Below, piece after piece: positions 1,231-37,200 of a stretch of DNA of 64,000 nt. The stretch comes from an uncultured bacterium (GTDB lineage Bacteria; Hydrogenedentota; CAZGCA01). The notes beneath the pieces are model-generated. The model saw nothing but the letters and a program-made list of their open reading frames with translations, was not told where the DNA came from and did no database searches. A program made the translations under genes and the position numbers. The stretch covers positions 4,133 to 68,132 of the forward strand of contig CAZGCA010000019.1 of assembly GCA_964524145.1 (NCBI GenBank). The letters are read 5' to 3'. The number at the start of each line of letters is the position of its first letter. Within the stretch, counting starts at the first letter, position 1.

Positions 1231-3771
1231 TCATTTCTTGGGGTCGCGTTTGGCGGGCAGCTTCCAGTCGGGATGGTGTTCCTTGGCCCATTTGTCGCTG
1301 ACCTTGCCGCCAAAAAGGCTTCTCAAGCTGTGAGGATTCACGACTGCCCCGAGATAGATGTGAGCCAGCAACAGGAGAATAATCAACAACCCGGCGAGGT
1401 CGTGAACGGCGTAGAGGAACGCGGTCCTCGGATGATGCGTTCCTTTGTAGAAGTACATCAGGATACCGGTCGCGACAAGGACGAGCCCGAGAAGTATGAC
1501 GATGTATGCGAATATCTTCTGTCCCGCGTTAAACTTGCCGGCAGGAAGCTCCTGGTTGCCGCCGAAGTACCCGCCAAGGCCAAAAAGCCAGCGCACGTCG
1601 CCTTTGGCAGGTATGATGGCACGGAGCCAAAACAGCAGCGCAAGCAACAATGCCCCGCCTCCAACGTAGCCGATGATGCCGTGGAGGTCGCGCGCGCCCT
1701 GCCCGAGGGGGTCGTTTTCACCGAGCAGGAAGAAGAACCCGGTGACCGCGAGATATACCACTGACAGCATCAGTACAAGATGGGTCAGCCGTTCGTGGAG
1801 CCGAAACCGGACGACGTTCGGCACGTATTCCTTCCCGTCGCCGCGGGTGCCGAACAGGCAGAAATGGAGCACGATAACCAGCACAACTCCCAGCACGATC
1901 CATGGCGCAGCAGGTTTTAGCAGCCCCTCTCGCCGCGCCGAGGAGAACACGCTCGAGGCCGAGATCCCCATCATCTTGTGCATCGGGAGAGTGACGGGCT
2001 TTCCGTCCTCGCCGTACGGGTTGATCTTTGCCGCGGCAAAGAAGAACGGCGACTCGCTCGCGTGGCAGTCGTCGCAACCGCCCGCACCTAACGCTTCTCC
2101 GCGCGGTGCAACATTGTGTTCGAGCGCCCATAGAACCGGCCCGGATTGCTTGTGAAAGTAAGACTTCACGGTACCGTCCGTATTGGCTTCAAACACCTTC
2201 AATCCCTTGACAAGAACGGGATTAGGGTCCGCGAACCGTTTGCCGCGAAGCGTCTCTTTAAGGGCGCTTGCTATGGCGGCGATCTCATCACTGGTGTTGA
2301 TCTCCGGTTTCCCGTCACCGTTGTCGTCAAACTCCGCGAAGAGAGCCTGCTCCCTTCTGCGAATTATTTCGGGAGTCACCTTCTTGGGCTTCGAGTCCTC
2401 GACGGCTTTCATGACCATTTGGTCGAAGACGGCCTTGACCTCTTTTGGGAACAGGGGGTGGATGAGGTCGCCTTCCTTGTGTCCCCACCAGACAGGCAAG
2501 AGCATGTTGTAGGGACGTATCTTGCCGTCATCGTCTCTGGTGTACGTCGGCGTCCACTCTGCGACGTCGCCGGCAGCTTTCGCTGTGTCCGGAACCGGGC
2601 TAGTGAACGTTGTGCCCGTGGAATAGTCTATGACGTTCTTGGCAGCGATCTTCTTGTACGGAATGTGGCAAGTCTCGCACGCAATCATGTCGAGATGAAC
2701 CTGCGGCAGCCCGCGATGAACCATCTCGGGTGCGCCGAGGTCTCCCGTAGCGTGGCAATCCTCACATACGCGCATGCTCCCATCAAGGTCGTCGCGAAGC
2801 GTCAGGTTGTTGGTATCGCCTTTTGCGAAGTTGTGGTCAAGGTCGCCGGGATGGCAGTCGATACACCGGATCCCGGATTTTGTGTGCACACCTTCATTGT
2901 AGTGGTCGCCCCAGGTGGTGCCCGTCTTCTCGTAACCCGACTGGTCGTGGCAATGAGTGCAGCTCCGGTCGTCCGGCCGGGTGATGGGCAAATCGATTTT
3001 GCCGTCAACGTTGAACAGTCTGGCGTTGTAGTGGACGCGCGGCACTTCATTGTCCCTGACCGAGCCGGCTATGCCGCCGAGACCCGCTGCCGCCGTTGCC
3101 GCCCAGCGGAAGTTGCCCTTGAGCATCTGCCCGACACGTATGCCGTAGTTGTAGCCCTCACCCAGATGACAGATGAGGCAGTCAGCCTCGATAACGCCGC
3201 TCTCGTCCCAGCGTGCGCCGTAGTAGTCGCCGTCGAGGAGTTGTGCCAGCTCGCTGTCGGTTGTCTGGAGGTCGTCGTACCGGTGGTCGTTGCGGTCACG
3301 CTCGGCCCTGGCGCCCCCGGGATGGCAGATACCGCACTCCATAACCCACTCGTAGACGCCCATATCGGCGTGCGACGGGCTCGGGATATCTTTCGGAGCC
3401 AGTTGCCGGTTGTAGGTAAGATCGAACTTGCCGAACGGTCCGTCCGACAAGGTCCAGGGCTTATCTTTGCCGCCGAAGTCGTCGGTAAGGATGTCGGCGC
3501 CCATCTGAAAATGGTACCCGTCGGTAATGCGGTTGTAGTCGTGGCAGGCACCACACGTTCTGCGCGGGCTGTATGCAGCCGCCGTTTCAGGATCGGCGAC
3601 CGGATCGATGATAAGGCCGTAGTCGTCTCGCAGAAAGAACGGCGGACAGGATGCAGGCCTCAACCGTTCGGCAGCCTCCCCGGAACTCCCGTTCCCGTAT
3701 GCCGTTAGAAGAAATACAATACCAGTGACCGCGACCAACGCGGCGACAACCGTTCTTCCATACAGTCTCAT
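1231..3771 (-). CDS. Octaheme c-type cytochrome fused to a C-terminal diheme cytochrome b (HydC/FdnI-type) membrane domain; CbcL-like quinone-linked electron-transfer protein
   Basis: N-terminal signal peptide. Eight CxxCH motifs (CGACH, CGICH, CLICH, CTHCH, CIDCH, CEDCH, CETCH, CDDCH). C-terminal ~230 aa has four TM helices with conserved His ('HERLTHLV', 'HGIIGY', 'FNAGQK', 'HDLAGLLIILLLLAHIY') resembling the Ni/Fe-hydrogenase and formate-dehydrogenase cytochrome b subunit. Confidence 0.8.
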   Translation of the reverse strand: MRLYGRTVVAALVAVTGIVFLLTAYGNGSSGEAAERLRPASCPPFFLRDDYGLIIDPVADPETAAAYSPRRTCGACHDYNRITDGYHFQMGADILTDDFGGKDKPWTLSDGPFGKFDLTYNRQLAPKDIPSPSHADMGVYEWVMECGICHPGGARAERDRNDHRYDDLQTTDSELAQLLDGDYYGARWDESGVIEADCLICHLGEGYNYGIRVGQMLKGNFRWAATAAAGLGGIAGSVRDNEVPRVHYNARLFNVDGKIDLPITRPDDRSCTHCHDQSGYEKTGTTWGDHYNEGVHTKSGIRCIDCHPGDLDHNFAKGDTNNLTLRDDLDGSMRVCEDCHATGDLGAPEMVHRGLPQVHLDMIACETCHIPYKKIAAKNVIDYSTGTTFTSPVPDTAKAAGDVAEWTPTYTRDDDGKIRPYNMLLPVWWGHKEGDLIHPLFPKEVKAVFDQMVMKAVEDSKPKKVTPEIIRRREQALFAEFDDNGDGKPEINTSDEIAAIASALKETLRGKRFADPNPVLVKGLKVFEANTDGTVKSYFHKQSGPVLWALEHNVAPRGEALGAGGCDDCHASESPFFFAAAKINPYGEDGKPVTLPMHKMMGISASSVFSSARREGLLKPAAPWIVLGVVLVIVLHFCLFGTRGDGKEYVPNVVRFRLHERLTHLVLMLSVVYLAVTGFFFLLGENDPLGQGARDLHGIIGYVGGGALLLALLFWLRAIIPAKGDVRWLFGLGGYFGGNQELPAGKFNAGQKIFAYIVILLGLVLVATGILMYFYKGTHHPRTAFLYAVHDLAGLLIILLLLAHIYLGAVVNPHSLRSLFGGKVSDKWAKEHHPDWKLPAKRDPKK

Positions 3772-3944
3772 CTTCTCTCTCCGTTACGGGTAAAAGTACG
3801 ACGAACTACCACGTTTCGCCGCCGGTCCCTTCCTCCCCTTCGGTCCGACGACGACACAGCCAGCCGGTCGCACGTGAACGTGCCACGTCGACCGCATAAG
3901 GCCGGCGTAAAACCCACCAGCCGATAACTCGTTCTCTTCTTGCG

Positions 3945-5327
3945 TCAGGCGTTGTAGAGGGACTTGTCGATCTCGATGCGGCGCCCTTCTCTTATCGCCT
4001 TGTTCGCTGTCATTGCGCATACAGTTGCATTCAGGCCAATCTGGACGTTGCAGTCCGGCTCGCGGTCCGTGCGTATGCAATCGAAGAAGTTCTCGAACTG
4101 CAACTGCTCGACGCGCTTCTCGATAGGCTCCGGGCTGACGGGTTCGCCCTCATCTTCCTGGGGTACATTGCTGAGGTCGTGCGACTCGCCGGACGTTATG
4201 ACGGTGGCAATCTTGCCTGCGAGCTTCTCTTTCTCGCCACGCGATCCCCAATCGAGCGTCGGAGCCGACCCTTCGCGGAAAAACAGCCCTTTGCCTTCGC
4301 GCAGGATGAATGTGCCGTGGTCGCCCATTATCTCCTCGGAAGCGCCGTCGTGCGCGTTGGCGCAGATCGACGAGTATATCGCCCGGATCTGGTAGGGTTT
4401 GCTCAGCTCGCCGTAGTCCTTTGCGCGTTCGTGTCGGCGGCTGTCAGGGTCAGGCACGTAAAACACGGCATTCTCCGGTTCTATGAGATACTCGTAGACT
4501 ACCTGGACGTTGTCCCAAACCTCGCGCCCGTCCTTCCAGTAGTCCACACCGCCCATACCTGTTACCGCCACGGGCAGAGAGTCGAATATCCAGTTGCAGA
4601 CGTCCATCTGGTGGCTCCCCAACTCGGTCATCAGACCACCGGAATACTCGTGATAGAGGCGCCAGTTTAGATGGCGCTCGAGATCCTTGATGCGGCCGCC
4701 GGGGTCTTTTTCGGGAACCGGTCGTCGCCAATCGTTGTTCCGGTGCCATTGGGCCCGGAAATGGTTTATCCTGCCCAGCACTTTCTCGTCGCGCGCGAGT
4801 TTGACGGCATGCTGGTAGGAGGGGTCGTAGTGACGCTGGTGGCCCACCTGCAACTTCAACTTCTTGCCGACCTCACGCACGGTCTTGGCCATCTGGTGTG
4901 CTTGCTCTATTGAGTAGGCCATGGTCTTCTCGCAGAACACGTGTTTGCCGGCCTGCATGGCGTCAATGCTGACCTGCGCGTGCAGATGCAGCGGCACAGT
5001 GACCACCACCGCATCGAGGTCGTCACGCTCGAGCATCTTGCGGTAGTCCACGTAGGTATCGGCTTTCTGGGCAAACTTCTTGCCGCCGTCGAGGTGGGGC
5101 TGATAGTTGTCACAGAGCGCGATAATCTCGCAGTCGTCGATCCGGAGCAACCCGGTGCGCATCAAGTGGCAGCCGCGTCCCCCGGTACCGACTATCCCCA
5201 CCGTAATCTTGTCGGCGGCCTTCGTCTCCGCAGCAGCCGATCTCGTCTTGGCCAAGCCCGCCGAGACGGCCGTTGCCACGACGCCCGTGTCCCTCAGAAA
5301 CTTCCGCCTGCTTACCTTGTCACCCAT
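3945..5327 (-). CDS. TAT-exported Gfo/Idh/MocA-family NAD(P)-dependent oxidoreductase
   Basis: Twin-arginine signal 'SRRKFLRDTGVVATAVSAGLA'. Rossmann motif 'ITVGIVGTGGRG'. 'CEKTMAYS' motif typical of the Gfo/Idh/MocA family. Confidence 0.8.
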   Translation of the reverse strand: MGDKVSRRKFLRDTGVVATAVSAGLAKTRSAAAETKAADKITVGIVGTGGRGCHLMRTGLLRIDDCEIIALCDNYQPHLDGGKKFAQKADTYVDYRKMLERDDLDAVVVTVPLHLHAQVSIDAMQAGKHVFCEKTMAYSIEQAHQMAKTVREVGKKLKLQVGHQRHYDPSYQHAVKLARDEKVLGRINHFRAQWHRNNDWRRPVPEKDPGGRIKDLERHLNWRLYHEYSGGLMTELGSHQMDVCNWIFDSLPVAVTGMGGVDYWKDGREVWDNVQVVYEYLIEPENAVFYVPDPDSRRHERAKDYGELSKPYQIRAIYSSICANAHDGASEEIMGDHGTFILREGKGLFFREGSAPTLDWGSRGEKEKLAGKIATVITSGESHDLSNVPQEDEGEPVSPEPIEKRVEQLQFENFFDCIRTDREPDCNVQIGLNATVCAMTANKAIREGRRIEIDKSLYNA

Positions 5328-5398
5328 AACTCATCTCTCCTTCTGAATCCATGTTGCTCGGATTGAGTATAGTTGCGTCACCCACATTGTACTAAATA

Positions 5399-5407
5399 AT
5401 TATACCA
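5399..5407 (-). promoter_or_regulatory. Extended -10 promoter element (TGgTATAAT) for the Gfo/Idh/MocA gene
   Basis: Minus-strand 'TGGTATAAT' about 70 nt upstream of ATG 5327. A GGAGAG RBS lies 8 nt before the start. Sits in an AT-richer 150-bp spacer. Confidence 0.35.
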
Positions 5408-5478
5408 CAAATCAACCACTTATTTCGAACGAAAAAACGGGCGGATTTCGGACCGGGTTTACCGGGTTCTCCACGCCG

Positions 5479-7821
5479 TCAGTCAAGGCCAAATCTCACG
5501 GTTCGCGGTTGTTCCCCATCGCCGTTTCGTACCACGAGAACCGCCTTCACTCCCGGATGCTTCTCACAGTACCGTTGTGCACCGTCTTGGCCCATCACGA
5601 AGAAGGCCGTCGAAAGAGCGTCGCTTTCTGTGCCGGTCGGCGCTATGGCAGAGGCGCTGAGCACGTTCTGGACGGGCATACCGGTGCGCGGGTCCATTAT
5701 GTGGCCATACACCTTTCCACCGATCTCGAAGAATTTCTCGAGGTTGCCGGAGGTGGACAAGGCGGCATCCTTGAGCGTGATTGTGTCGAGATGTTCGGAT
5801 TTGTTCATCGGGTCGCGGATCCCGACTTGCCACCCTTCCTCGCCGGGAGGCGTGCCGAGCGCGTAGATGCTGCTCGTGCCGGCGTCCACGAGAGCCGAGT
5901 CGATTCCGTGTTGTTTGAGCACCTCGACGGCCTGGTCCAGCGCGTAGCCTTTGGCGATTCCGCCGAGATCAATCTCGACATCGGGGGAATCGAACCTGAC
6001 GGTGAAGTTGTCGGCGTCGAGCAGGACATGATGTTGGCCCACCTTCTCGAGTACGGCGCCAAGCTCGTCCGTGCCGGGTATGCGTCCCTCGTCGCGGAAA
6101 AACCCCCACGCGCGCATGAGGGGTCCTACGGTGATGTCGAACGCGCCGCCGGTGTCTTTGTTTATCTTTGCAGCAAACTCCAAGAGCCCAAACAGCTCGG
6201 ATTCAGCCTTGACGGGTGCTGTTGCTGCCCGCGTGTTTATCCAGCTCACGTCGCTGCCGGTGTCGTAACGGTTGAGCTGGTCGTTGAGCAGGTCGATACG
6301 TTCGAAGACCTCCGTGGCGGCCTCGTGCAACTTCCATTCGTCGTCACCGTGAAGGATGAGCATGAACTCCGTGCCCATCGCCCTGTGAGTGGCCGTGTGT
6401 AAGGCCGGGGCCGAGACGGTCTCGGTCTGCGCGGGCGCCGCCAACGCGGCCACCTCAACCGCGGGCGGATTGAACCGCTTCTGAAGCTCCTGCCAGTTCT
6501 TCTGGAGGCCGAAGTACGCCGCCACGCTCAGCACAATAACCGACAAGCTCAGCATGACGTTCCAGAGAAGTCGCTTGCCGCCGCGCGGTGTCTCGTCGCC
6601 CATGTAGGACCTCTGGTTGAGCAGCACCATGAAGCAGACGACGGCGACCGGCATGAGCGGCGCAGCTAGGGTCGAAGCAGTGATCGCAGCGTACCACGGG
6701 AACTTGATTGCGACTCCTACGACGCCGACGGCCGGGACGAGCGAGAACCACCACCTGGCACGGCCGCGATGCTCGAACCCGAACATCTCGCACCCGATAA
6801 AGCCGGTCGCGAGCATGTGTGTGATGATGGTCGAGAAACCGATGGCGATCATCCCGAAGCCTATGAGCAGGAGCGACAACCCCTTGCCGAGGCTCGGCGC
6901 CAGCACGGGGACTATTTCGCGAATGTCGCGCACGACGTTTGTCGCGGCTTGCCCGTCCGCAGGCCCGATGGTGTTGGCAACCGCAATCATCATGAAGCTC
7001 GTCGCTATCAGGAACGGCACAAGCATCCCGCTTATCAGGTCGAAATAGGCCAGTTCCTTGTGCTCCTTGCCCCAGTTCTTGTTGAGCAGCGAGTAAGGGT
7101 ACAGGAACACCATGTTGATACCGACCGCCGCCGCCACGCCTCCGACAATGGGTTTGATAGCGCGTGGATCGAGCCCCTGGCCGCCCAGGATGTCCTGTAA
7201 GAACGCGATGCCCGTGAAACCCAGGAACAGCCGTTTCCATTGAATGCCGCTCGATATCGCCACGATAGCGAACGCCACAACGATGGACCACACCATCGTT
7301 TTGACCGCGAGTTCGTAAATCTTGAGGCCCCTGGCACCCGCATGGTAGAGATAGACAATCACGCATGCCGAGCAGAGAACGACCGCGCCGATGCCCGCAC
7401 GACCGGCCACACTGTCCAGCGACACGCCCGCACCTTCCGCCAGCGAAACAACGCCGTTGGCCGTCAGCGAGTACTGCGGAATGTGCCAGAGCACCGTAGC
7501 GATCAAAGCGCTCCCGCCCCAGAGGATTGCAAGGGCCGGATGGAGCCGTTCCCAGAACACCTTGTACGGGCGTTGCTGGGTGTGGCAGGTCTGTTTCGCG
7601 ACGGACGCAAGCACGTAGCACCCGAGGATAATGGCCAGGGGTTGTACCCAGAGCAGCTTGTACCCGAGCAGCGAACCCATCACCACGCACGAGGCGACCG
7701 ATCCGCCGCCCAACGTCATCGCGCTCTGAAGGTAGCCGGGACCTGTCAGCCGCATGTACAGCCGAACGCGTTTGAGCGGCGGCAACTCCCTGGCGCGCAG
7801 GAGTGTCTCTTTTTCGTCCAT
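5479..7821 (-). CDS. Fusion protein: Nramp-superfamily (divergent MntH-like) membrane transporter core fused to a C-terminal ApbE/Ftp FAD:protein FMN transferase domain
   Basis: N-terminal ~440 aa has 11-12 TM helices with the Nramp-like start '...LTGPGYLQSAMTLGGGS' (lacks the canonical DPGN/MPH metal site). C-terminal ~330 aa carries ApbE motifs 'IDLGGIAKGYALD', 'SGNLEKFFEIGGKVYGHIMDPRTGMPV' and 'ESDALSTAFFVMG'. Confidence 0.8.
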   Translation of the reverse strand: MDEKETLLRARELPPLKRVRLYMRLTGPGYLQSAMTLGGGSVASCVVMGSLLGYKLLWVQPLAIILGCYVLASVAKQTCHTQQRPYKVFWERLHPALAILWGGSALIATVLWHIPQYSLTANGVVSLAEGAGVSLDSVAGRAGIGAVVLCSACVIVYLYHAGARGLKIYELAVKTMVWSIVVAFAIVAISSGIQWKRLFLGFTGIAFLQDILGGQGLDPRAIKPIVGGVAAAVGINMVFLYPYSLLNKNWGKEHKELAYFDLISGMLVPFLIATSFMMIAVANTIGPADGQAATNVVRDIREIVPVLAPSLGKGLSLLLIGFGMIAIGFSTIITHMLATGFIGCEMFGFEHRGRARWWFSLVPAVGVVGVAIKFPWYAAITASTLAAPLMPVAVVCFMVLLNQRSYMGDETPRGGKRLLWNVMLSLSVIVLSVAAYFGLQKNWQELQKRFNPPAVEVAALAAPAQTETVSAPALHTATHRAMGTEFMLILHGDDEWKLHEAATEVFERIDLLNDQLNRYDTGSDVSWINTRAATAPVKAESELFGLLEFAAKINKDTGGAFDITVGPLMRAWGFFRDEGRIPGTDELGAVLEKVGQHHVLLDADNFTVRFDSPDVEIDLGGIAKGYALDQAVEVLKQHGIDSALVDAGTSSIYALGTPPGEEGWQVGIRDPMNKSEHLDTITLKDAALSTSGNLEKFFEIGGKVYGHIMDPRTGMPVQNVLSASAIAPTGTESDALSTAFFVMGQDGAQRYCEKHPGVKAVLVVRNGDGEQPRTVRFGLD

Positions 7822-8253: not shown

Positions 8254-8676
8254 TTAATACGTAACTGTAATTGTACCCTTGGCCGTGAGAGGTACAAGAC
8301 CTGCTTCCGTTTCGACCTTGAGTTCTTCGCCGTCCCCGTCGTACGCGTTGAACGTCCAATGGAACTCGCCGGGAGGAGCCTCAAAAGGAACCTCGAACTC
8401 GATCGAATAAACGCCGTCGTTGGCCGTCACGTCGCCTTCCGTGCCATCATCGTACAGGTCCAGGGTAATCTCCGGATACTCATCGACAGTAACAGTGACT
8501 GAATCGACGATGTTCTCCGGATCGATCACCTGCACGGAGATGAGAGCCGTATCTCCGGGCGCAACCTCTAAAGGCTTGACCCCTGCCTCAACCATGGCAA
8601 GCTTCTGTCCGGCACAGCCGGCGAACAGAATAGCCAAACATGCCAGAGTGCACCACGTCAGTGATGTCTTCTTCAC
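8254..8676 (-). CDS. Small secreted lipoprotein (Ig-like/beta-sandwich, unknown function)
   Basis: Lipobox 'ILFAGC'. GTG start at 8676, chosen because it is 8 nt from the GGAAGGAGG RBS (the track start at 8685 abuts the RBS). D/E/T-rich beta-strand pattern. Confidence 0.55.
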   Translation of the reverse strand: MKKTSLTWCTLACLAILFAGCAGQKLAMVEAGVKPLEVAPGDTALISVQVIDPENIVDSVTVTVDEYPEITLDLYDDGTEGDVTANDGVYSIEFEVPFEAPPGEFHWTFNAYDGDGEELKVETEAGLVPLTAKGTITVTY

Positions 8677-8756
8677 TCGATTCACCTCCTTCCCTAACGT
8701 TTGTGAAATCGTTGCTACAGCGCACAGTTGCCTCGACTGCTCCCACCACGGTGCTA

Positions 8757-12316: not shown

Positions 12317-12441
12317 TGTCTTTTACCCGTTCAAAGTCTCAGACTTTCTTCTTCCCCACCGTTTGTGAGCCGACGCGAAGATCGCTGAGTTATTGCGTCC
12401 CGCCCTATACCCATATGTTGTCAGAAAGGTTGACTCTGCTC

Positions 12442-13574
12442 CTACGTGATCTCGGCTATCGCCGACTCGGGGGTATACACCCAACCCCGCTCTGTGTGGA
12501 GCCCCACCTTGCCGCCGGCCCGTATGATCGACGTGCCGCGCATCACACCCCCTCGCTTTAGCCGCACAACGAACATCTCCTTCTCGTCACCAACGGGCGG
12601 CAGCCATTTCTCGTCGCGCTTGGGAGCGGACGCGAGCAACATGACGCGTTCGCGCCCGGCGTCGAAATCACGCTGGTACCGCATCACACGCTCAACGTAC
12701 TTGCGGGTCTCCTTGAACGGGGGCACCCCGCGATACTTCTTAACGTTCTCCGGACCGGCATTGTACGCAGCCAACGCGAGCCGCATGTCGCCCGGGAACA
12801 GCTCTCGCATCTTTGCCAGATACTGGGTGCCGCCGGCAATATTCTCGTCGGGATCAAATATGTTCCGGACTCCCATCTCTGAGGCAGTACCCGGCATGAG
12901 TTGCATGTAGCCTCGCGCACCGCAGCTCGATACGGCGTACTGGTTGAAATTGGACTCGGCCTTGATGACTGCCGTTACCAGCGATGGCGGCAACCCGTTG
13001 GCTTGCGCATGGAATGTGATGAGCTCGTCAAGTTCTTCCGGCGTAGTCGGAACTATTGAATCCCTTGAACGAGGTCCCGGCGATCGTCGCGCTACGCCCT
13101 GCCTCGCCAGAAGCCGTTGCCTGCTTTGCCAGTACGTCTTTATGGGATCGAATCGCAGGTCATGCGGCACAAGGCCGGCTTCGAGATACTCCTCGGGCCT
13201 GTTTGTATATATCCATTTGCCGGTCTTGTCCTTGAATACGACAATCTTCGACGAAGGAAGGCTGATCGATTTCCCGCTACTCTGGGGGGGCTTGGCGATC
13301 TCTTCCGGGATGCCGCCACCAAACCCGGTGTCTTGTTTCTTATCCCGGACATGTCTCTTGATATTGTGTTTCTTGATATATGCCGTCGGGCCGGTGGGAT
13401 TCTTTATGAGTATCGAATCCCCGGTTTCGCGGAGCACCTGGACATCACGCAGAATCACTCCGTCTTTCATGTGCAGCGTGTCCGCGACACTTGTGCGGCT
13501 CACACAGAACGCGATTGCCGACGCCATACACAACGCCAACACCGCCACGTTGAATCGCTTTATGTCAGCCAAAC
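12442..13574 (-). CDS. Lytic transglycosylase (SLT domain) with N-terminal signal peptide
   Basis: SLT motifs 'AVIKAESNFNQYAVSSCGARGYMQLMPGTA', 'AGGTQYL' and 'AAYNAGP'. The track ORF extends to 13851; the probable start is the TTG at 13574, which gives the signal peptide 'ADIKRFNVAVLALCMASAIAFCVS'. Confidence 0.7.
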
Positions 13575-22922: not shown

Positions 22923-25900
22923 ATGGCCGAAAGACAGAGATTGTTGGTTGTAATCGCCATCGTGCTGGTCGTTGCAGCGTCCGGGGTCGTGTTGCGCGTG
23001 GGGCGGCACGCAGGTGTCGAGCCGCGCCGAGCGCCTGCTGTGGTAACGGCTGGCAGGCTGGACGAGGATGCGCTGCAACAGACGTCGTGGTGGGCCGAGG
23101 CACAGGAGAACGTTCGGGAATCCGAGTACGCGGTCACGCGGCAGGAGAGGTCTGTCGTCGAAGGCAAGCCGGGCGGGCTTCATGCCGCGAACCGCGCGCA
23201 GAATCTTCGGGCCTACTTTCGGAGGGACGGCGTTGAAGTGGTCCCGCGAACGGGCGATTCCGCCGCGTGGGAATGGAGATGGAAGCTCTCAAGCTACGGA
23301 CGAAGCGACAACACTATCCCCGTTGGCGAGGTGGAGCCCACGCATGAGAGGGATCGGGTCGAGTACGACCGTCCGGGTATCACGGAATGGTACAAGAACA
23401 CGGAAGAAGGGATCGAACAGGGTTTCACCATCCCCGAACGCCTTCAAGGAGATGGCCGCCTTGTTATCGAAGGTATCGTCGGGGCAAGTCTGCATGCTGT
23501 ATCGCCCGATTCGGGCGACCGCGTCCGGTTTCTTGACGGGAACAACGTCGAAGTCCTTCGCTACAGCAGCTTGAAAGCCTTCGACGCGATCGGCAGAGAG
23601 CTGCCCGCCGTGATGCAGCTTGCCAGGAACACCGTTCAGCTCGTGGTCGATGACACCAATGCAATCTATCCGGTCACCGTTGACCCTATCATGACGAGCC
23701 CGCAGTGGATTGCGGGGAGCAACCAGTGGGACGCCAATTCCGGGTGGTCTGTTTCGGGTGCAGGTGATGTGAACGGCGACGGATACAGCGACATAATCGT
23801 CGGGGCGTATCAGTACGACAACGGCCAGGCAGACGAGGGGGCTGCATTCGTGTTTCTGGGCTCCGAGTCCGGAATCGTAGGAGGTCCCCCGGCCGACGCG
23901 GAGGCCGTGCTCGAGTCGAACCAGGCGAATGCGTATTTCGGCTATAGTGTGTCGTGCGCCGGTGACGTCAACGGTGACGGCTATTCCGATGTGATAGTAG
24001 GGGCTGCCGGCCAGGCATACGACATATATGATTTCTCGCCATCAATGACCTACAGTTATGGCGCGTACGACAATGGCGAGGCGAACGAAGGCGGGGCGTT
24101 TGTGTTTCTGGGCTCCCCGTCTGGGATCGTAGGGAGTTCCCCAGGCGATGCCGCCGCCGTGTTGGAATCGAACCAGCCGTACGCGTTTTTCGGCTGGAGC
24201 GTATCGGGCGCAGGTGACGTAAACGGTGACGGGTACGCCGACGTGATCGTCGGGGCGCACCGATACGACCAGGGCCAGACAGATGAAGGCGGGGCGTTCG
24301 TGTTTCTGGGGTCCGCGTCCGGCATAGTGGGGAGTTCTCCGGCCGATGCCGCAGCCGTGTTGGAATCGAACCAGGCGTATGCCTATCTCGGCTGGAGCGT
24401 ATCGTACGCAGGTGACGTAAACGGCGACGGGTACGCAGACGTAATCGTCGGGGCGTATCAGTACGATCACGCCCAGACGGACGAGGGTTCGGCCTTTGTG
24501 TTCCTCGGTTCGGTGTCCGGAATCGTCGGGACCAACCCCGGCAATGCAGCGACGGCGTTGGAGTCCGACAATGAGGCGGCGCAATTCGGATACAGCGTAT
24601 CGGGGGCGGGGGACGTGAACGGTGATGGATACGCTGATGTCATTGTAGGGTCGCCTTACGACGAATACAATCCCGTTGATCCCTATGAGGTGTTGATCGG
24701 ACGCGCGTTCGTGTATCTCGGCAACTCCTCGGGATTGGAAACGGGCCCCGTGTGGACGGCCCAGGGTGTCGACAAAGAGTGCTTTGCATGGGCCGTTTCC
24801 ACAGCCGGAGACATCAACGGAGACGGGTGTGCCGACGTTATCGTCGGCGCCCCTGTCCGGAACGCGTTCCACGGTCCGGAAGACCCCGTACCTGCGGGCC
24901 GTGTGCTGGCATATCTCGGGAACTCGAGCGGTGTCTCTGCTGATCCGGTTTGGAGCGTTGAGAGCGATACGGAAGAAGCCATGCTGGGTTATAGCGTATC
25001 GAGCGCGGGCGACGTCAACGGTGACGGGTACTCCGACATCATCGTCGGCGCCCCTCTCCACAGCATTACGAAATCGAATGAGGGCGGGGCGCTTGTGTTT
25101 CATGGTGGGTGTGAACCTCCTGCCGCGAGACCGGTATGGAGGATTGAGGATTTCGTGGCGTCCGACAACTACGGGGCAGCCGTTGCAGCATTGGGAGACA
25201 TAAACGGAGACGGCTATGACGATGTAACCGTCGGCGACCCCGCCTTCCCCAATTCCGACCCCTCCTCTGAAGGGGCCGGGCGAGTGTATGTGTACCTGGG
25301 AAACAACACAGGGTTGGAGAGCGGGCCGGTATGGAGTGCGCCGGGAGGCTCGTCGGGTTCTGCCGTCGGCGGGGCCGTTTCCGGTGCCGGCGACGTTGAC
25401 GGCGACGGCCACCCCGAACTCATCATTGGAGACCCCGGCTTTGACAATCGTGGCCGTGTCCTTGTCTACGGCTGGAACGGATCGGACCTCTCACCAGTGT
25501 GGAGCGCCGAAGGCGTTGAAGCTGAAGCAGAGTTCGGCGCGTCCGTCGCAGGAGTTGGAGATGTGGACGGGGACGGGTACGCAGATGTGCTGGTCGGCGC
25601 GCCGCTATACGACGACGGGTTGTCCGACCAAGGCCGTGTCTTTGCCTACTTTGGGAGCCCGACGGGCCTCAGCACCTCGGCCAAATGGGTTGCGAGTCCG
25701 GCCCAGGCGGGCGCACGGTTCGGTACCTCGGTTGCGGGAGCGGGCGACGTCAATGGTGACGGCTATGCGGATGTCATCATCGGGGCACCATTTTGTGACG
25801 GTGCATACCCCAATGTCGGGCGTGCGTGCGTGTACCTCGGGAGCGCAGCCGGCCTGCCGGACTCCCCGGCGTGGACTGTTGACGGAGAACAGGAGGACGC

Positions 25901-28900
25901 CCAGTTCGGTTCCCGGGTCACGGGTGTAGGCGACGTCAATGGCGACGGGTACGACGACGTGCTCGTGGCAGCGCCGCTCTATGACGGCATCTTCTTTGAC
26001 GGTGGCCGCATATTCCTGTATCTCGGTAACGCGTCGGGCATCTCAAGCACACCTGTGTCGGAACAAGACGGGGCCCAAGAGGATTCCCAGCTTGGCGCAT
26101 CCGTTGCCGGGGTGGGAGACGTGAGCGGAGACGCTCTGGCAGATGTGCTTGTCGGGGAACCCGGATATGAACTCCCGCCTGAGTACGAGGGGGGTCCAAT
26201 GCAGGTTAACGGGCGGACGGTTCTGTTTGAGGGTTCCCCAGAGGGGCTCTCGTCGGCACCAACCTGGACGTGCGAGGCTGGCGCGTATTACGACATGGGA
26301 CATGCGGTGTCGGGAGCCGGCGACATGAACGGGGATGGAGCTCTCGATATGCTGGTTGGGGTTTCCGGTGACAGCCCTCATCTGTTGAATGGGTACGTGA
26401 GGTATTTTATCGGAAACGGGGGCGACGGGCCTGAGCCTAAACCGGGAATAACGCAACAAAGCGGCGACCCGGTTGGCGCACCGGGCATAGTCGTCGACGA
26501 TGGGGGGATTCGGCTTGTCATGGCAGGAAAGGTGCCACTCGGGCGCGCGGCAGTAAGACTGGAATGGGAGATCGAGCCGTACGGTACAACCTTTGACGGG
26601 TTGGAAATACGGACGAGCGACCCATGGCACGATAGCGGCCTCTTAGGGTATCCGTTTGACAGGCTTATCACCGGATTGGGAGACGCTCACGGTTTCCGCG
26701 TTCGGATGCGCTTGCTTTACGCTCCGCTTGAAGTGCTGCAACCTGGAATCACTCCGCCGCCCAATCCTTCACACAGTCCGTGGTTCTATCCTTGCTGGGC
26801 GACAGTGGGCCCTTCCGATTTTCGGGCCTCCGGCTATCGGCCTCCGACGGACCCCGGCACGGTCGTCGTCACGCAGACTGCTCTGAGCACGGTGGACGAC
26901 ATCCAGTGCACAGTGGACGCATCAAGTACCTCACCAGCCGTGCCGCCGCAACCCGTTCAGTACGAGTTTCTCTGGTCGAACGGAGAGACCAGCGTCGTGC
27001 ATGTGTCCTCATCCTTGACAGACACACTCGACGCCTCTGAAACGAGGAAACATGAGACTTGGACCTGCACGGTGCGGGCATGGGACGGAGTCCAATACTC
27101 GCACGGTGCTTCGTCGGACACGGCTCCTCAAATCGACAACACGGCGCCGTCGCAGGCGACTCTTGACTGGGTGCGCGGTTCCGGTGCGGAACCCTACGAA
27201 TACGGGCCGCTCGATACAGTCCAAATCCAGATAACGGACTACTACGACGCCGACAACGACCTGCTGGTACCGGAGTTCACATGGGAGTACTACAGGGGCG
27301 GCACGTGGAACTCACCGGACTCGACAAACGTGTCGAGCACCACACTGTCGAGCTGGATAGAATCCGGTATTCCGCAGGAAGGCGATGTGTGGAAGTGTAC
27401 GGTGCGGATGTATGATGGTGAAGCCTGGAGCGGCTCGTCGAGTCTCGAGGCAACGATATTGGAGACGGGTGTTGACGAGTTGCTGATGACTATAGCGGTA
27501 ACGCCGCAGAGCGTCACGCTTGGCGAGGGGGTGACGATCACAGGCGGCGTGAGCCCGTCAGCGGACGTAGCGATATCGTTCAAGAGCAAGGAACTAGGTT
27601 CGAGTGGCTTTTCGCGGTCTTTTCCCCAAGGCGTGACCGCGTCCTCGGGCGCATTTAGCAAATTCTTCCTGCCGGACGCGGCGTCGGAAGGCCGATCCGA
27701 CTGGGAGGTGAGAGCGGAATTCAACGGAGACGCCTACTACCGCCCCGCAACGAGCAACGAAGCGTCTTTCGCCGTGGCCAAGGCCGAACCGGAGCTCGAG
27801 CTGGACTTGTCGCATGCCACGGCCTTGGTCAATCTAGGCAACGCAGAGAGTTTCGCTGCGACGGCGACCCTGTCGGTGGACGGCTTTCCCACGGAGCTCA
27901 AACCGTTGTTGTCGGGCAAGACAATCCGGCTGTCGGTGTCGGACCCGGATGGCCAGACGCCGTATGACCCCATCGAGAAGACGACAGACTCCGATGGCGA
28001 GGTGGTGTTAACCGCCCAGGACTTCAGGGACGCATGGGATCCCTCCGATACGGACGGCATCTTCATGGAGTCGGGGGTGTGGAAGTTCAAGGCGGAGTTT
28101 GCGGGCGACGACAACTTCACGCTTGCCTCGACGCCGGACTATGACGAAACCGACGCGCGTCTTATCGTCAAGGAAGGCGCGGGCTACGCGATACTCGTGC
28201 TGGGCCGTCTCGACCAGACCGCAGAAGGTCATGACGCGCACGCCAAGACCACCGACTACATCTACCGCACGCTGGTGGATCGGGCGTTCGACCCGAGCGA
28301 CATCTACTACATGCGCGAGTACCTGGGCGACGAAAAGGAGTCGTCGGATATCGAGGTTGACGACGAGTCGCCGACCAAGGCGGACGTGCAGTATGCAATA
28401 GAGACATGGGCCTACGACGCGATATTCGATTCGCCGGCGACGTTCTACATCATCTTTGCCGACCACGGCAGCGTGGACAAGTTCCACCTGTGGTCTTCGG
28501 AGAACACCGAAGACGATGACCAGTACCTCACGCCCAATGAGCTTGACGGCTATGTTGATCTGCTCGAAACGCAACTTGGAACCGACCCGGAGATAGTGTT
28601 CATCTACGGTGCATGCCACTCGGGGAGTTGCATTCCGACCCTCTCCGCATCGAACCGGGTGCTTATCACGAGCTGCGCTGAGGACGAGATCTCGTACCGT
28701 GGGGTGGACAGCGATCCGACGGACGGTTCGGACGTGCGGGACGGCGAGTTTTTCCTGATGGAGCTGTTCCGTAACGCGGGCGCGGGCAGGTCGTTCGAGG
28801 AGTCGTTCGAGCTTGCCTCGGCCAAGACGGTCGAGTACACGGCGTCGAAGAGCAACGGGGCGTTGGCCGATGAGCCGCAGCACCCGCTGCTCGACGACGA

Positions 28901-34292: not shown

Positions 34293-37200
34293 ATGAACAG
34301 ACACCCCATTCTGGCTGCTGTTGTCATCGCGCTGTGCCCTGCAGCATTTGCGGACACCTGGTACGTTGACGCCGAGAACAGCTTCCCGATTCAAAGCGGC
34401 AGAAGCTGGACCACGGCGTTTACGGCCATCCAGGCCGGTATCGATGCCGCGTCGGACGGCGATGACGTCATCGTCGCCGAGGGCACGTACGTCGAAAACG
34501 TCAACTTCAACGGGAAGAATATCGTCCTGCAATCGACCGACCCGGCGAACCCCGACGTGGTCGCCAACACTGTCATCGATGGCGAACGGTATAGTTCGGT
34601 GGTGACCTTCTCCGGGGAAGAAGCAGAGGAGTGCGTCCTTTCCGGGTTCACCATCACCTGCGCCGACAGCTATTGGGATTACCGCCGCGGTATCAGCGGA
34701 AACGGGACGCTGGCCACCATCGAAAACAACACGATCTCACACAACTTAGCGATGTCTCTTCACTATTTCTTCGGGGAAGAGACTATGGACAACTACGGCG
34801 GTGGAGTCTGCGATTGCGACGGCATCATCCAGAAAAACACCATCACCCGCAACGCAGCGGGCCATTCTGGTGGCGGGCTCGCTTATTGTGACGGCATCAT
34901 CCGGAACAACACGATCAGCGACAATACCGCGTACGGAGGCGATTGGTTTTACGGGATTGTCGACGGCGGTGGAGGCGCACTCTATTCGTGCAACGGCACG
35001 GTCGAAAACAACATAATCTCGGGCAACTCAGTCGACGGCACTTTTTCGTATGGCGGTTTCGGTGGCGGGCTCTTCGAGTGCGACGGTACCGTACAGAACA
35101 ACGCTATCTGCGATAACTCGGCCTACTATGGTGGTGGGCTCTACAGTTGTGACGGTACCGTCCTGAACAACACCGTCACAAACAACACCGCTCACGGGTA
35201 CGGCGGCGGACTGTATCTCTCCTACGGACTGATAAGCAACTGCATCGTGTGGGCGAACGCTGCACCAGACGGGGCACAGCTTGACAATTGCAGCATGCCG
35301 CGGTATAGCTGCATACAGGATTGGACCGAAGGCGGCACGGGCAACATAGCAGATGACCCCAGATTCATCGATCTATCTGCCGGCGACTACCATTTGCAGC
35401 CCGATTCTCCCTGTATTGATACCGGCAACATTGACGATCTTTATGTTGCTGCCGCCGCCGGTTGCGTCAACGACATTGATGGAGAATGCCGGCTGGCCGG
35501 TGGTTCTGTGGATATAGGCAGTGACGAGCACAATAGTCCCGCAGACACTGACGGCGACCTGCTACCCGACAGCGATGAGATCGCCCTGGGCCTCAGTCCA
35601 TACGACGCGGATACAGACTCCGACGGCTTGATGGATGGATTGGAGCTCTTGCGGAGAACTGATCCATCCTCATACGATACCCCCGCCGGCATGGTGGTTC
35701 TCGCAGGCATCTCCTCGATCCAGGCTGCGCTTTCCCTAGCGTTTCCCTCCGAAACCATTATCGTCTATCCGGGTACCTATTATGAGAACCTCCGTTTCCC
35801 GGGGAAAGACGTCGTCTTGCGTTCGACCGCACCCACCAGCCCCGGCATCGTCGGCTCAACCATCATCGATGCCGGTCGGAACGGTCCTGCCGTCATGTTC
35901 CATGGCACGGAATCGTCCGATTGCGTCTTATCGGGATTCACCATCACAAACGGCACCGCGTCCGAAGGCGGCGGTATCCGCGGGTACGGAACCCTGGCCA
36001 CCATCGAGCACTGTACCATCTCGGGTAACTACTCGGAAGACAATGGCGGTGGCTTGTATGACTGCCGCGGCACCATTCGGAACAACATCATTTCGGACAA
36101 CTCGGCTCGTTATAACGGCGGCGGCCTCTCCCGTTGCGACGGAGCAATCGAGAACAACACCATCTCGGGCAACACCGCCGATTACGAATTCGGCGATGGC
36201 GGCGGGTTGCATAACTGCAGCGGCACTATCCGGAACAACACCATCTCAGAGAACGTGGCCGGAGTGGACGGTGATGGCGGGGGGCTGTTCAGATGCGATG
36301 CATTGATCCTGGGCAACACCATCACTGACAACTGGGCAGAATATGGTGGCGGACTCGCAGACTGCAACGGCACCATACAGAACAATACAATCGCGGGCAA
36401 CTCCGCGGGACGAAACGGCGGAGGGCTAAGCGGATGCGATGATGCCATCCTGAACAACACCATTACAGACAACTCGGCCGCTAATGGCGGCGGGCTCAGC
36501 CGGTGCAATGGCGCAATCCTCAACAATACTATTGCCGGCAACTTTGCCGTGTACGATGGCGGCGGATTGGACGCTTGCAGCGGTGCAATCCTGAACAACA
36601 CGATCGCGGACAACTCTGCCCGTACCGGTGATGGCCTCCATCGCTGCGACGGGTTTATCGCGAACTGTATCATCTGGGGAGACTCCCCCGACAGCGGCCC
36701 GCTTTTCAGTTCCAACATGCCTCTCCATAGCTGTATTCAGAACTGGACTGATGGCGGTGCGGGCAACATCTCCGACGACCCAAGGTTCGTGGACGCGCCC
36801 GGTGGAAACTACCATTTGAGCTCGGACTCGCCCTGCATTGATGCGGGCAGCCTTGGCCATGCTTATCTGCCTGAGTCATGGGTTGGCGACATCGACGGAG
36901 AGTGCCGGTTGGCAGGCAGCTCTATAGATATGGGCAGTGATGAGCAAAACAGCTCTGTGGACAATGATAGCGATTTGCTTCCTGACATCGATGAGACCGC
37001 CTCAGGAAGCGACCCCTACAACCCCGATACGGACGGGGATGGCGTACCTGATGGGTTGGAGGTCTTCCGAGGAACCGACCCGACCGTTTATACGACGGCT
37101 TCGGGCATTTCCGTTCCCGCAGACCTCCCTTCGATACAGACGGCGATCATGGTGGCGTTTCCTGGAGAGCTCATAACCGTCTCCCCGGGAACCTATTACG

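What the first reader, a model, noticed from the sequence alone, without database searches (positions are those of the whole stretch)
1231..7821. Clustered periplasmic redox module: CbcL-like octaheme-c/diheme-b cytochrome, TAT-exported Gfo/Idh/MocA oxidoreductase, and the transporter-ApbE fusion
Three consecutive same-strand genes encode an inner-membrane c/b-type cytochrome, a cofactor-containing periplasmic dehydrogenase, and a flavin transferase fusion. The cytochrome's architecture matches Geobacter CbcL, which is used in low-potential extracellular electron transfer. Together these suggest a quinone-linked periplasmic or extracellular electron-transfer pathway, possibly flavin-dependent. 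A polyprenyl synthase and thioredoxin reductase lie nearby.
Basis: inference. Interest (0 to 1): 0.6.

Follow-up and report, generated by a model that had tools for sequence, protein, structure and literature searches.

The report
Flavin-tagged periplasmic dehydrogenase wired to cytochrome
Three neighbouring genes form a conserved unit in which an exported sugar-type dehydrogenase probably receives a covalently attached flavin and passes electrons through a membrane cytochrome to the quinone pool, a way of linking such enzymes to respiration that I found in no paper.

Summary
The three minus-strand genes are real: an 8-CxxCH cytochrome c fused to an FdnI-type diheme b (1231-3771), a Tat-signal Gfo/Idh/MocA oxidoreductase (3945-5327), and an Nramp-like/ApbE fusion (5479-7821). 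They are co-conserved. Six relatives keep the order apbE, gfo, cytochrome, usually with the apbE stop overlapping the gfo start. Three more loci keep apbE-gfo without the cytochrome, so that pair is the core. In a flexible loop of the Gfo protein one Ser/Thr is present in 120 of 121 homologs. In 20 of 116 more distant family representatives that same position carries the full ApbE flavinylation motif D-x-x-[S/T]-G-A-[S/T]. The motif occurs nowhere else in those proteins, against 0.33 expected by chance. The Gfo enzyme is therefore the likely ApbE client. The tethered FMN would re-oxidise the bound NAD(P)H and feed the hemes, then menaquinone at an Fdn-N-like site. The "CbcL / extracellular electron transfer" reading is not supported: the c domain differs, and the window holds no outer-membrane conduit or second multiheme ORF. 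The Nramp-like part lacks the metal-binding DPGN motif, and its role (FAD export?) is open. No paper in the held library links ApbE to this enzyme family. The window's own motif is degenerate (TSGES).

The parts
5479..7821 (-). Gene for the Nramp-like / ApbE fusion protein (780 aa)
   Evidence: ORF. Pfam Nramp plus ApbE. At least 60 distinct 90%-identity clusters share this fusion architecture.
6502..7821 (-). Nramp-like domain with 11 predicted TM helices; the metal-binding motif of TM1 is lost (LGGGS at 7699-7713 replaces DPGN)
   Evidence: A hydropathy scan gives 11 TM segments. The alignment to human NRAMP1/2 shows DPGN replaced by GGGS. The MntH NCBIfam model scores 33 bits against a cutoff of 430.
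5482..6378 (-). ApbE (FAD:protein FMN transferase) domain, predicted to face the periplasm
   Evidence: PF02424 E=4e-79. E=2e-45 to Listeria FmnB 7esa. The motifs GGIAKG, LSTSG, GHIMDPRTG and DALSTA are present.
5328..5478 (-). 151-bp spacer between apbE and gfo, holding a sigma-70-like site at 5386-5428
   Evidence: The region gave 2 such sites against 2.3 expected, so the site is not significant. In relatives this spacer is replaced by a 4-nt overlap.
3945..5327 (-). Tat-exported Gfo/Idh/MocA NAD(P)-dependent oxidoreductase (460 aa)
   Evidence: Pfam domains. SRRKFL at 5295-5312, GTGGRG at 5172-5189 and EK at 4923-4934. The AF2 model has pLDDT 86 and its best fold matches are Zymomonas GFOR.
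4182..4196 (-). Loop motif T378-S-G-E-S382, the proposed FMN attachment site (Ser382)
   Evidence: The column is S/T in 120 of 121 homologs. It lies in a loop with pLDDT below 50, residues 366-394. It aligns with the canonical D-x-x-[ST]-G-A-[ST] motif in 20 of 116 family representatives.
3772..3944 (-). 173-bp spacer between gfo and the cytochrome gene
   Evidence: Sequence. No terminator-like site was found there. Relatives have 77-122 bp at this position.
1231..3771 (-). Gene for the octaheme-c / diheme-b membrane cytochrome (846 aa)
   Evidence: ORF. AF2 pLDDT 90 with TM helices 2-26, 605-640, 658-682, 690-719, 749-775 and 783-811.
1960..3693 (-). Periplasmic c-type domain with 8 CxxCH motifs (Cys at aa 73, 146, 198, 271, 303, 336, 365, 566)
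   Evidence: Motif positions. All eight are conserved across the family. A family profile matches NrfA and octaheme tetrathionate reductase 1sp3 only weakly.
1234..1959 (-). FdnI-type diheme cytochrome b domain. It carries His664/697/790/804 and FNAGQK (1516-1533), which aligns with the FdnI menaquinone site.
   Evidence: TIGR01583 scores above cutoff. The Foldseek match has E=5.6e-9.

Best explanation
The locus encodes a periplasmic dehydrogenase:quinone oxidoreductase built from three parts.

1. The Gfo/Idh/MocA enzyme is folded with NAD(P) in the cytoplasm and exported by Tat. The Tat motif, the Rossmann motif and the GFOR-like fold are shown. Tight cofactor binding is inferred from GFOR.
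2. The ApbE domain sits on the outer face of the membrane, held there by an 11-helix Nramp-like domain. It transfers FMN from FAD onto Ser382 (Thr in most relatives) in a flexible loop of the Gfo enzyme. This step is inferred from gene linkage and the motif.
3. The enzyme oxidises a still unknown periplasmic sugar or polyol. The tethered FMN swings into the active site and takes the hydride from the locked-in NAD(P)H, playing the role of GFOR's second substrate. It then gives up single electrons (inferred).
4. The electrons run along the eight c hemes into the two b hemes and reduce menaquinone at a cytoplasm-facing site, as in formate dehydrogenase-N. Periplasmic oxidation would thereby feed the quinone pool and contribute to proton-motive force. 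The heme and quinone-site residues are shown to be conserved. The direction of flow is inferred.

The Nramp-like domain has lost its metal site. It may export the FAD that ApbE needs (speculative).
For: Gene linkage:
- The order apbE, gfo, cytochrome is found in the window and in L087, L089, L090, L091, L092, L095 and L096 (cytochrome identity 42-50%). The flanks are unrelated, and the apbE stop mostly overlaps the gfo start.
- The apbE-gfo pair occurs without a cytochrome in L093, L097 and L098. The L098 case was predicted beforehand for a different Gfo subclade.

Loop motif:
- Column 382 is S/T in 120 of 121 homologs and is the best-conserved loop column apart from W360.
- The loop is disordered in the AF2 model.
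- 20 of 116 50%-identity cluster representatives carry the full D-x-x-[ST]-G-A-[ST] motif at that exact column and none elsewhere; shuffles expect 0.33.
- The motif definition is taken from PMC12052999 section 8 and PMC8238504.
- The linked cytochromes hold no conserved motif of this kind.

Other components:
- The ApbE domain has its catalytic motifs.
- The standalone ApbEs in relatives carry signal or anchor sequences.
- In the b domain the four heme-ligand histidines and the NAGQK site align with FdnI.
Against: - The window's own motif is TSGES: Glu replaces the consensus Ala, Ser replaces Thr, and there is no upstream Asp. Most cytochrome-linked relatives have TSGGT.
- In the window apbE and gfo are 151 bp apart rather than overlapping.
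- Two relatives (L002, L085) keep gfo and the cytochrome with no adjacent apbE.
- No coordinates were available to test whether the loop can reach the nicotinamide.
- The direction of electron flow, the substrate and the FMN-to-heme contact are all untested.
- The c domain has only 6 conserved non-motif histidines for 8 hemes, so it may be catalytic rather than a plain wire.
- The wider cytochrome family (80 loci at 33-40% identity) has no gfo or apbE nearby.
Confidence: 0.55

Rival explanations
1. Same complex run in reverse. The b/c cytochrome oxidises menaquinol, and the flavinylated Gfo enzyme is a terminal reductase for a periplasmic keto-sugar or other carbonyl compound. This would be a respiratory or detoxifying reductase, like the flavinylated periplasmic fumarate and urocanate reductases.
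For: - Known ApbE-dependent extracytosolic enzymes of this kind are reductases fed from the membrane (PMC8238504 section 16).
- CbcL-type bc fusions act as quinol oxidases (bioRxiv 10.1101/2022.08.31.506072).
- Gfo-family enzymes are reversible.
- All the linkage evidence fits either direction.
Against: - Menaquinol (about -75 mV) is a poor donor to NAD(P)+ (-320 mV). Electron flow uphill through bound NAD(P) is unfavourable unless the FMN reduces the substrate directly.
- The b domain keeps the Fdn-N-type cytoplasmic quinone site, which in Fdn-N works in the quinone-reducing direction.
Confidence: 0.15
2. The module is real, but the Gfo enzyme is not flavinylated. ApbE modifies another protein encoded elsewhere, or merely supplies periplasmic FMN. 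The conserved loop Ser/Thr would then serve substrate binding or docking to the cytochrome.
For: - The strict [ST]GA[ST] motif is present in only 13 of the 121 closest homologs.
- The window has SGES.
- L002 and L085 lack an adjacent apbE.
Against: - 20 of 116 representatives carry the complete 7-residue canonical motif at the same column and nowhere else, against 0.33 expected.
- apbE is translationally coupled to gfo in several lineages and stays with gfo when the cytochrome is absent.
- No other conserved candidate substrate exists in these loci.
Confidence: 0.15
3. One reading: a CbcL-like quinol oxidase that starts a low-potential extracellular electron-transfer chain, with the dehydrogenase and ApbE as accessory parts.
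For: - The architecture (periplasmic multiheme c plus FdnI/HydC-like b in one chain) is the one described for CbcL (PMC6295460).
- In 28 of 72 loci of the wider family, the position directly upstream of the cytochrome gene holds a member of the same sequence cluster. This could be a paralog, but a crude ORF call may also have split one gene.
Against: - 8 rather than 9 CxxCH, a c domain of about 580 aa against about 300, and 5 rather than 6 TM helices.
- No second multiheme ORF in the 64-kb window.
- No porin-cytochrome or MtrAB-like genes in any of the linked loci.
- The conserved partner is a dehydrogenase, not a periplasmic shuttle cytochrome.
Confidence: 0.08
4. The three genes are unrelated neighbours. 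Tat-Gfo paralogs are so common in these genomes that adjacency is chance.
For: - Gaps of 151 and 173 bp, with a promoter-like site between apbE and gfo.
- 6040 Gfo homologs at E<=1e-20.
- Other Gfo paralogs lie in several of the loci.
Against: The same orthologous trio, in the same order and on the same strand, recurs in at least 7 loci with different flanks and overlapping stop/start codons.
Confidence: 0.03

Closest known systems
E. coli formate dehydrogenase-N (FdnGHI), specifically the FdnI cytochrome b556 subunit
   Same: The C-terminal domain is a true FdnI homolog. TIGR01583 scores above cutoff, E=2.7e-21 to 1kqf_C, and fold TM is 0.73. The four heme-ligand histidines and the NAGQK stretch of the menaquinone site align. 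In both, a periplasmic catalytic module feeds a b subunit whose quinone site faces the cytoplasm.
   Different: There is no molybdopterin or Fe-S subunit. The electron-input module is an eight-heme c domain fused in the same chain, plus a separate NAD(P)-type dehydrogenase. An extra TM helix (605-640) links the two domains.
Geobacter sulfurreducens CbcL (and the CbcL/MtrH/MtoC group)
   Same: A single polypeptide with an N-terminal periplasmic multiheme c domain and a C-terminal HydC/FdnI-like diheme b domain.
   Different: CbcL has 9 CxxCH in a compact c domain and 6 predicted TM helices. It is described as working without a flavin or an accessory enzyme, and it functions as a quinol oxidase for extracellular acceptors. 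Here there are 8 hemes in about 580 aa and 5 TM helices, with a conserved dehydrogenase and ApbE as partners. Direct sequence comparison with CbcL could not be run.
ApbE-flavinylated extracytosolic redox proteins (NqrC/RnfG FMN_bind, PplA, DUF2271, DUF3570, periplasmic fumarate/urocanate reductases)
   Same: A dedicated apbE lies next to its client. The [S/T]GA[S/T]-type motif ends in the modified Ser/Thr. The setting is extracytosolic, and the system is linked to a membrane b-type cytochrome.
   Different: The client fold is a Gfo/Idh/MocA NAD(P) dehydrogenase, with the motif in a disordered loop. None of the recognised substrate domains has this fold. The electron partner is a c8/b2 fusion. 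ApbE is often fused to an Nramp-like membrane protein.
Zymomonas mobilis glucose-fructose oxidoreductase (GFOR)
   Same: It gives the best structural matches (1rye, 1h6d, 1evj). It is Tat-exported with non-dissociable NADP and has a ping-pong mechanism in which a second substrate re-oxidises the bound cofactor.
   Different: GFOR has no flavin, no ApbE and no cytochrome partner, and lacks the loop of about 40 residues that carries the Ser/Thr motif. Identity is only 17-18%.
Periplasmic glycoside 3-dehydrogenases of the 3-keto-glycoside pathways (Bacteroides BT2158; ThuAB; LacABC)
   Same: These are Tat-signal Gfo-family enzymes acting on sugars in the periplasm. How BT2158 is re-oxidised is stated to be unknown (PMC8121099). 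One apbE-gfo relative (L097) sits beside 3-keto-disaccharide hydrolase and ThuA genes.
   Different: The window protein scores 84 bits against the BT_2158 model, whose cutoff is 750. No DUF1080 or ThuA gene is present in the window. LacABC is FAD-based.

Membership tests
ApbE / FAD:protein FMN transferase (PF02424) | Full-length match to the family model above its cutoff | tested here: met
   266 bits against a cutoff of 25.6, profile positions 1-265 of 266. E=2e-45 to FmnB 7esa.
ApbE / FAD:protein FMN transferase (PF02424) | Conserved catalytic and FAD/Mg-binding motifs (GGIAKG, TSG, H-I-x-D-P-x-T-G, D-A-L-S-T-A) | tested here: met
   All are present at aa 620, 688, 706 and 734 of the fusion. 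Their assignment to function is from my own knowledge and PMC12052999.
ApbE / FAD:protein FMN transferase (PF02424) | Transfers FMN to a client protein | not testable with these tools
   Needs co-expression followed by UV-fluorescent SDS-PAGE or mass spectrometry.
ApbE substrate | Motif D-x-x-[S/T]-G-A-[S/T] in an accessible segment | tested here: inconclusive
   The window has V-I-T-S-G-E-S, so the strict motif is not met. Close orthologs have TSGAT. 20 of 116 family representatives have the full motif at the same column. The loop has pLDDT below 50.
ApbE substrate | Belongs to a recognised substrate domain (FMN_bind, DUF2271, DUF3570, NqrB/RnfD) | tested here: not met
   Pfam finds only Gfo/Idh/MocA domains.
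Nramp divalent-metal transporter | Match to PF01566 over the whole domain | tested here: met
   87.9 bits against a cutoff of 29.8, profile positions 1-353 of 357.
Nramp divalent-metal transporter | Metal-binding DPGN motif in TM1 | tested here: not met
   DPGN is replaced by GGGS in the alignment to human NRAMP1/2. The MntH model scores 33 bits against a cutoff of 430.
Gfo/Idh/MocA oxidoreductase | N-terminal Rossmann domain with GxGxxG and the E-K dyad, plus the C-terminal alpha/beta domain | tested here: met
   PF01408, PF02894 and PF22725 all score above cutoff. GTGGRG and EK are invariant. The fold matches GFOR and inositol dehydrogenases.
Tat substrate | S/T-R-R-x-F-L-K motif followed by a hydrophobic stretch | tested here: met
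   SRRKFL at aa 6-11. Nearly all homologs carry RRxF.
BT_2158 glycoside 3-dehydrogenase (NF058561) | Score at or above the curated cutoff | tested here: not met
   84 bits against a cutoff of 750, and only the N-terminal 193 positions match.
Formate dehydrogenase gamma subunit (TIGR01583 / FdnI) | Model score above cutoff, four heme-ligand histidines and the quinone-site residues | tested here: met
   126.3 bits against a cutoff of 115.85. His664/697/790/804 and FNAGQK align with FdnI H18/H57/H155/H169 and YNAGQK. The residue roles are from my knowledge of the 1kqf study.
Formate dehydrogenase gamma subunit (TIGR01583 / FdnI) | Encoded with FdnG/FdnH-type catalytic and Fe-S subunits | tested here: not met
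   No such genes are in the window or in any related locus.
CbcL | Multiheme c domain fused N-terminally to a HydC/FdnI-like b domain | tested here: met
CbcL | Nine CxxCH motifs and six TM helices (PMC6295460) | tested here: not met
   8 CxxCH. Five TM helices after the N-terminal signal helix.
CbcL | Sequence or fold homology of the c domain to CbcL | not tested
Octaheme tetrathionate reductase family (TIGR04315) | Score at or above the curated cutoff | tested here: not met
   40 bits against a cutoff of 375. The family profile matches 1sp3 only at E=2e-4.

The most novel reading that the evidence does not exclude
Tat-exported Gfo/Idh/MocA dehydrogenases are a widespread, so far unrecognised class of ApbE substrates. 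They occur in Hydrogenedentota, Acidobacteriota and Bacteroidota, including the cultured Aquiflexum balticum. In this reading an FMN tethered to a flexible loop acts as a built-in second substrate. It re-oxidises the enzyme's locked-in NAD(P)H and hands single electrons to membrane cytochromes. That would explain how periplasmic NAD(P)-bound sugar dehydrogenases can be coupled to respiration. As a further step, the metal-site-less Nramp-like protein fused to ApbE would be a new kind of FAD exporter.
Probability: 0.45. Interest if true: 0.85.

Novelty: new variant of a known kind. Interest (0 to 1): 0.72.

Why it matters
- NAD(P)H is an obligate two-electron donor and hemes take one electron. 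How Tat-exported, cofactor-locked periplasmic dehydrogenases get rid of their electrons is openly unresolved, for example for Bacteroides BT2158 (PMC8121099). A covalently tethered FMN would be a simple adaptor.
- If confirmed, this adds a new client fold to ApbE biology.
- It also defines a new respiratory input module: dehydrogenase, eight c hemes and an FdnI-type b subunit.
- It gives a candidate route by which glycan-degrading uncultured phyla conserve energy from periplasmic sugar oxidation.
- The family includes a cultured bacterium, so the idea can be tested directly.
- The Nramp-like/ApbE fusion also points to a possible new flavin exporter.

Tried and rejected
- **Wider cytochrome family.** I surveyed 80 genome loci of the wider c8/b family (33-40% identity). 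None has gfo or apbE within 10 kb. The linkage is therefore specific to one clade and not a property of the whole cytochrome family.
- **Flavinylation motif in the cytochromes.** No conserved motif of this kind was found.
- **Riboswitch search.** No FMN riboswitch or other Rfam element lies near the Nramp-ApbE genes in the window or in 4 related loci. The only hit was a sub-threshold gntR-DTE match at E=0.31.
- **Promoter/terminator scan.** The counts equal chance, so the scan cannot settle the transcription units.
- **Model coordinates.** These are not exposed, so loop-to-nicotinamide distances could not be measured.
- **Polyprenyl synthase and thioredoxin reductase.** Rejected as module parts, because they are distant and not conserved next to it.
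- **Literature.** Searches linking ApbE or flavinylation to MocA, Nramp, ThuA or Hydrogenedentes found nothing.
Full report
**Observation**

The interval 1231-7821 holds three consecutive minus-strand ORFs exactly as described.

- The 846-aa product of 1231-3771 has eight CxxCH motifs. Its C-terminal domain matches PF01292 and the formate-dehydrogenase gamma model TIGR01583 above its curated cutoff.
- The 460-aa product of 3945-5327 has both Gfo/Idh/MocA domains, an SRRKFL twin-arginine motif, GTGGRG and the E-K dyad.
- The 780-aa product of 5479-7821 is an Nramp-family domain followed by a full ApbE domain.
- The gaps between the genes are 151 and 173 bp.
- The scan for promoters and terminators gave counts equal to chance. 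The window alone therefore cannot show whether the genes form one transcription unit.

**The cytochrome**

- The b domain is not a spurious similarity. It aligns with E. coli FdnI (1kqf_C) at E=2.7e-21. His664, His697, His790 and His804 sit opposite the four FdnI heme ligands, and FNAGQK sits opposite YNAGQK of the quinone site.
- FdnI is the only significant Foldseek hit of a high-confidence model with pLDDT 90.
- The model has a signal helix, a c domain of about 580 residues, a linker TM helix and four FdnI-type helices.
- The c domain has no close solved relative. A family profile reaches NrfA and octaheme tetrathionate reductase only weakly, and the curated octaheme models are far below cutoff.
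- CbcL is described as having nine CxxCH, six TM helices and a compact c domain, with V205 at the c/b interface and F525 in the membrane (PMC6295460; bioRxiv 10.1101/2022.08.31.506072). The resemblance is therefore one of architecture only. I could not obtain a CbcL sequence or search the AlphaFold database.
- The window contains no other ORF with two or more CxxCH motifs, and none of the other genes I annotated in it resembles an outer-membrane conduit.

**Co-conservation**

- The cytochrome family is large: 560 or more relatives among species-representative genomes. In the 80 best loci (33-40% identity) there is no gfo or apbE within 10 kb.
- In 28 of 72 of those loci, the position directly upstream of the cytochrome holds a member of the same sequence cluster. 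This could be a paralog, but my ORF calling was crude and may have split one gene.
- In the closer clade, mostly named Hydrogenedentes, the picture is different.
- Relatives at 56-57% identity keep the orthologous gfo directly upstream, amid otherwise different genes (L002-L004 and L085).
- Relatives at 42-50% identity keep the full order apbE, gfo, cytochrome:
  - L087, where the c and b parts are separate genes;
  - L089 and L091, with a standalone ApbE;
  - L090 and L092, with the Nramp-ApbE fusion;
  - L095 and L096.
- In most of these the apbE stop codon overlaps the gfo start.
This is indirect evidence.
- The apbE-gfo pair also persists without any cytochrome:
  - L093;
  - L097, which sits among 3-keto-disaccharide hydrolase and ThuA genes;
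  - L098, a case I predicted for a third Gfo subclade before looking.
- The core conserved unit is therefore ApbE plus the Tat-Gfo enzyme. The cytochrome is an add-on in one clade.

**What ApbE acts on**

ApbE attaches FMN to the last Ser/Thr of D-x-x-[S/T]-G-A-[S/T] (PMC12052999 section 8; PMC8238504).

- The linked cytochromes hold no conserved motif of that kind.
- The Gfo proteins do, in an insertion between the last beta-strand and the C-terminal helices. Three of four close orthologs read TSGATHDLS, and the window reads TSGESHDLS.
- Across 121 homologs the final position is Thr in 101 and Ser in 19. It is the best-conserved column of the stretch 355-411 apart from W360, and the overall pattern is [TD][SA]G[GAK][TS].
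- In the AF2 model (pLDDT 86, GFOR-like core) residues 366-394 have pLDDT below 50, which indicates a flexible exposed loop.
- The strongest evidence comes from more distant relatives. A search of 1.84 billion cluster representatives found 375 at E<=1e-30.
- Among 116 full-length representatives, 20 carry the complete seven-residue motif (for example VDGVSGAT) at exactly the aligned column. The motif occurs nowhere else in these proteins, and shuffled sequences give 0.33 proteins with the motif anywhere.
- One such protein is from the cultured Aquiflexum balticum, and another is from a Thermoanaerobaculia genome.
- I conclude that this Gfo subfamily is very probably an ApbE client.
- For the window protein itself the case is weaker, because Glu replaces the consensus Ala. 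Lineages with Gly or Lys at that position still keep a coupled apbE.

**Where ApbE acts**

- The fusion has 11 predicted TM helices, the usual bacterial Nramp number. This would place the ApbE domain outside the membrane (inference).
- Standalone ApbEs of relatives carry signal or anchor sequences.
- The ApbE domain has the expected motifs and matches Listeria FmnB at E=2e-45.
- Flavinylation would therefore follow Tat export.

**The Nramp-like domain**

- It matches PF01566 end to end, but the metal-binding DPGN of TM1 is GGGS and the MntH model scores far below cutoff.
- The fusion occurs in at least 60 distinct 90%-identity clusters. Standalone homologs at 65-71% identity also exist.
- Flavinylation gene clusters in other bacteria often include a flavin transporter (PMC11334425). 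FAD export is therefore a reasonable guess, but no FMN riboswitch supports it.
- A DeoC-family aldolase gene recurs next to these genes. Import of a sugar product is thus an alternative role.

**Mechanism proposed**

1. The enzyme is exported by Tat with NAD(P) bound.
2. ApbE attaches FMN to Ser382 in the periplasm.
3. The enzyme oxidises a periplasmic sugar or polyol.
4. The tethered FMN takes the hydride from the bound NAD(P)H.
5. One-electron transfers pass through eight c hemes and two b hemes.
6. Menaquinone is reduced at the cytoplasm-facing site, as in Fdn-N.

Steps 1 and 6 rest on homology. Steps 2 to 5 are inference. The reverse direction, a non-flavinylated enzyme and the CbcL/EET reading are the rivals.

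**Novelty**

In the held library, no paper connects ApbE or flavinylation with MocA-family enzymes, Nramp, ThuA or Hydrogenedentes. The large flavinylation survey lists a Gfo protein only once, as an incidental neighbour, in the part of its supplement that is held. The parts and the principles are known; their combination and the client fold are new.

Noticed in passing
L005-L084 (wider cytochrome family), e.g. L063:682-3159 and 3990-6467: In 28 of 72 loci the position directly upstream of the c8/b cytochrome holds a member of the same sequence cluster. It may be a paralogous multiheme gene, or a split made by my crude ORF calling. L063 has two full-length tandem copies. No other neighbour is conserved.
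   Followed up: partly
L092:1-118, L093:7000-7644, L094:7181-7843, L096:3727-4407: A DeoC/LacD-family aldolase gene (PF01791) lies divergently upstream of the (Nramp-)apbE gene in four loci. This hints at the sugar pathway served. No such gene is present in the window.
   Followed up: no
L087:9923-12343 and 12336-13055: In this relative the c domain and the b cytochrome are separate, overlapping genes. The b subunit also hits DUF4405, a family recently shown to be a flavinylation-associated cytochrome.
   Followed up: partly
L095:10511-11077; L096:2730-3344: An FMN_red/flavodoxin-like gene lies next to the trio in two loci. A URO-D-like gene flanks the trio in L091 (13538-14479) and L095 (2953-4107).
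   Followed up: no
window 1960-3693 (c domain): Only six conserved non-motif histidines (H87, H296, H313, H352, H359, H552) are available for eight hemes. Lys115, 127, 218 and 317 and Met137 and 597 are conserved, so two hemes may have Met/Lys ligation or an open site. The domain could be catalytic rather than a simple wire.
   Followed up: partly
L097:2713-12457: An apbE-gfo pair is embedded in a cluster with a 3-keto-disaccharide hydrolase (DUF1080), two Gfo_C2-type oxidoreductases and a 939-aa ThuA-domain protein. This links the flavinylation-motif Gfo family to 3-keto-glycoside metabolism.
   Followed up: no
window 22923-31643 and 34293-39176: Two giant ORFs. One is 2906 aa with many FG-GAP repeats and a C-terminal dockerin. 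The other is 1627 aa with beta-helix repeats. Both are probably surface or secreted proteins unrelated to the finding.
   Followed up: no
window 8254-8685: A 143-aa predicted lipoprotein (LFAGC lipobox) with no confident family match lies 430 bp upstream of the fusion gene on the same strand. It is present in the identical contig L001 but was not seen in the other related loci.
   Followed up: no
window 3772-3944; L089-L092 equivalents: The gfo-cytochrome spacer is consistently 77-173 bp, whereas apbE and gfo usually overlap. Whether it holds a regulatory element was not examined.
   Followed up: no
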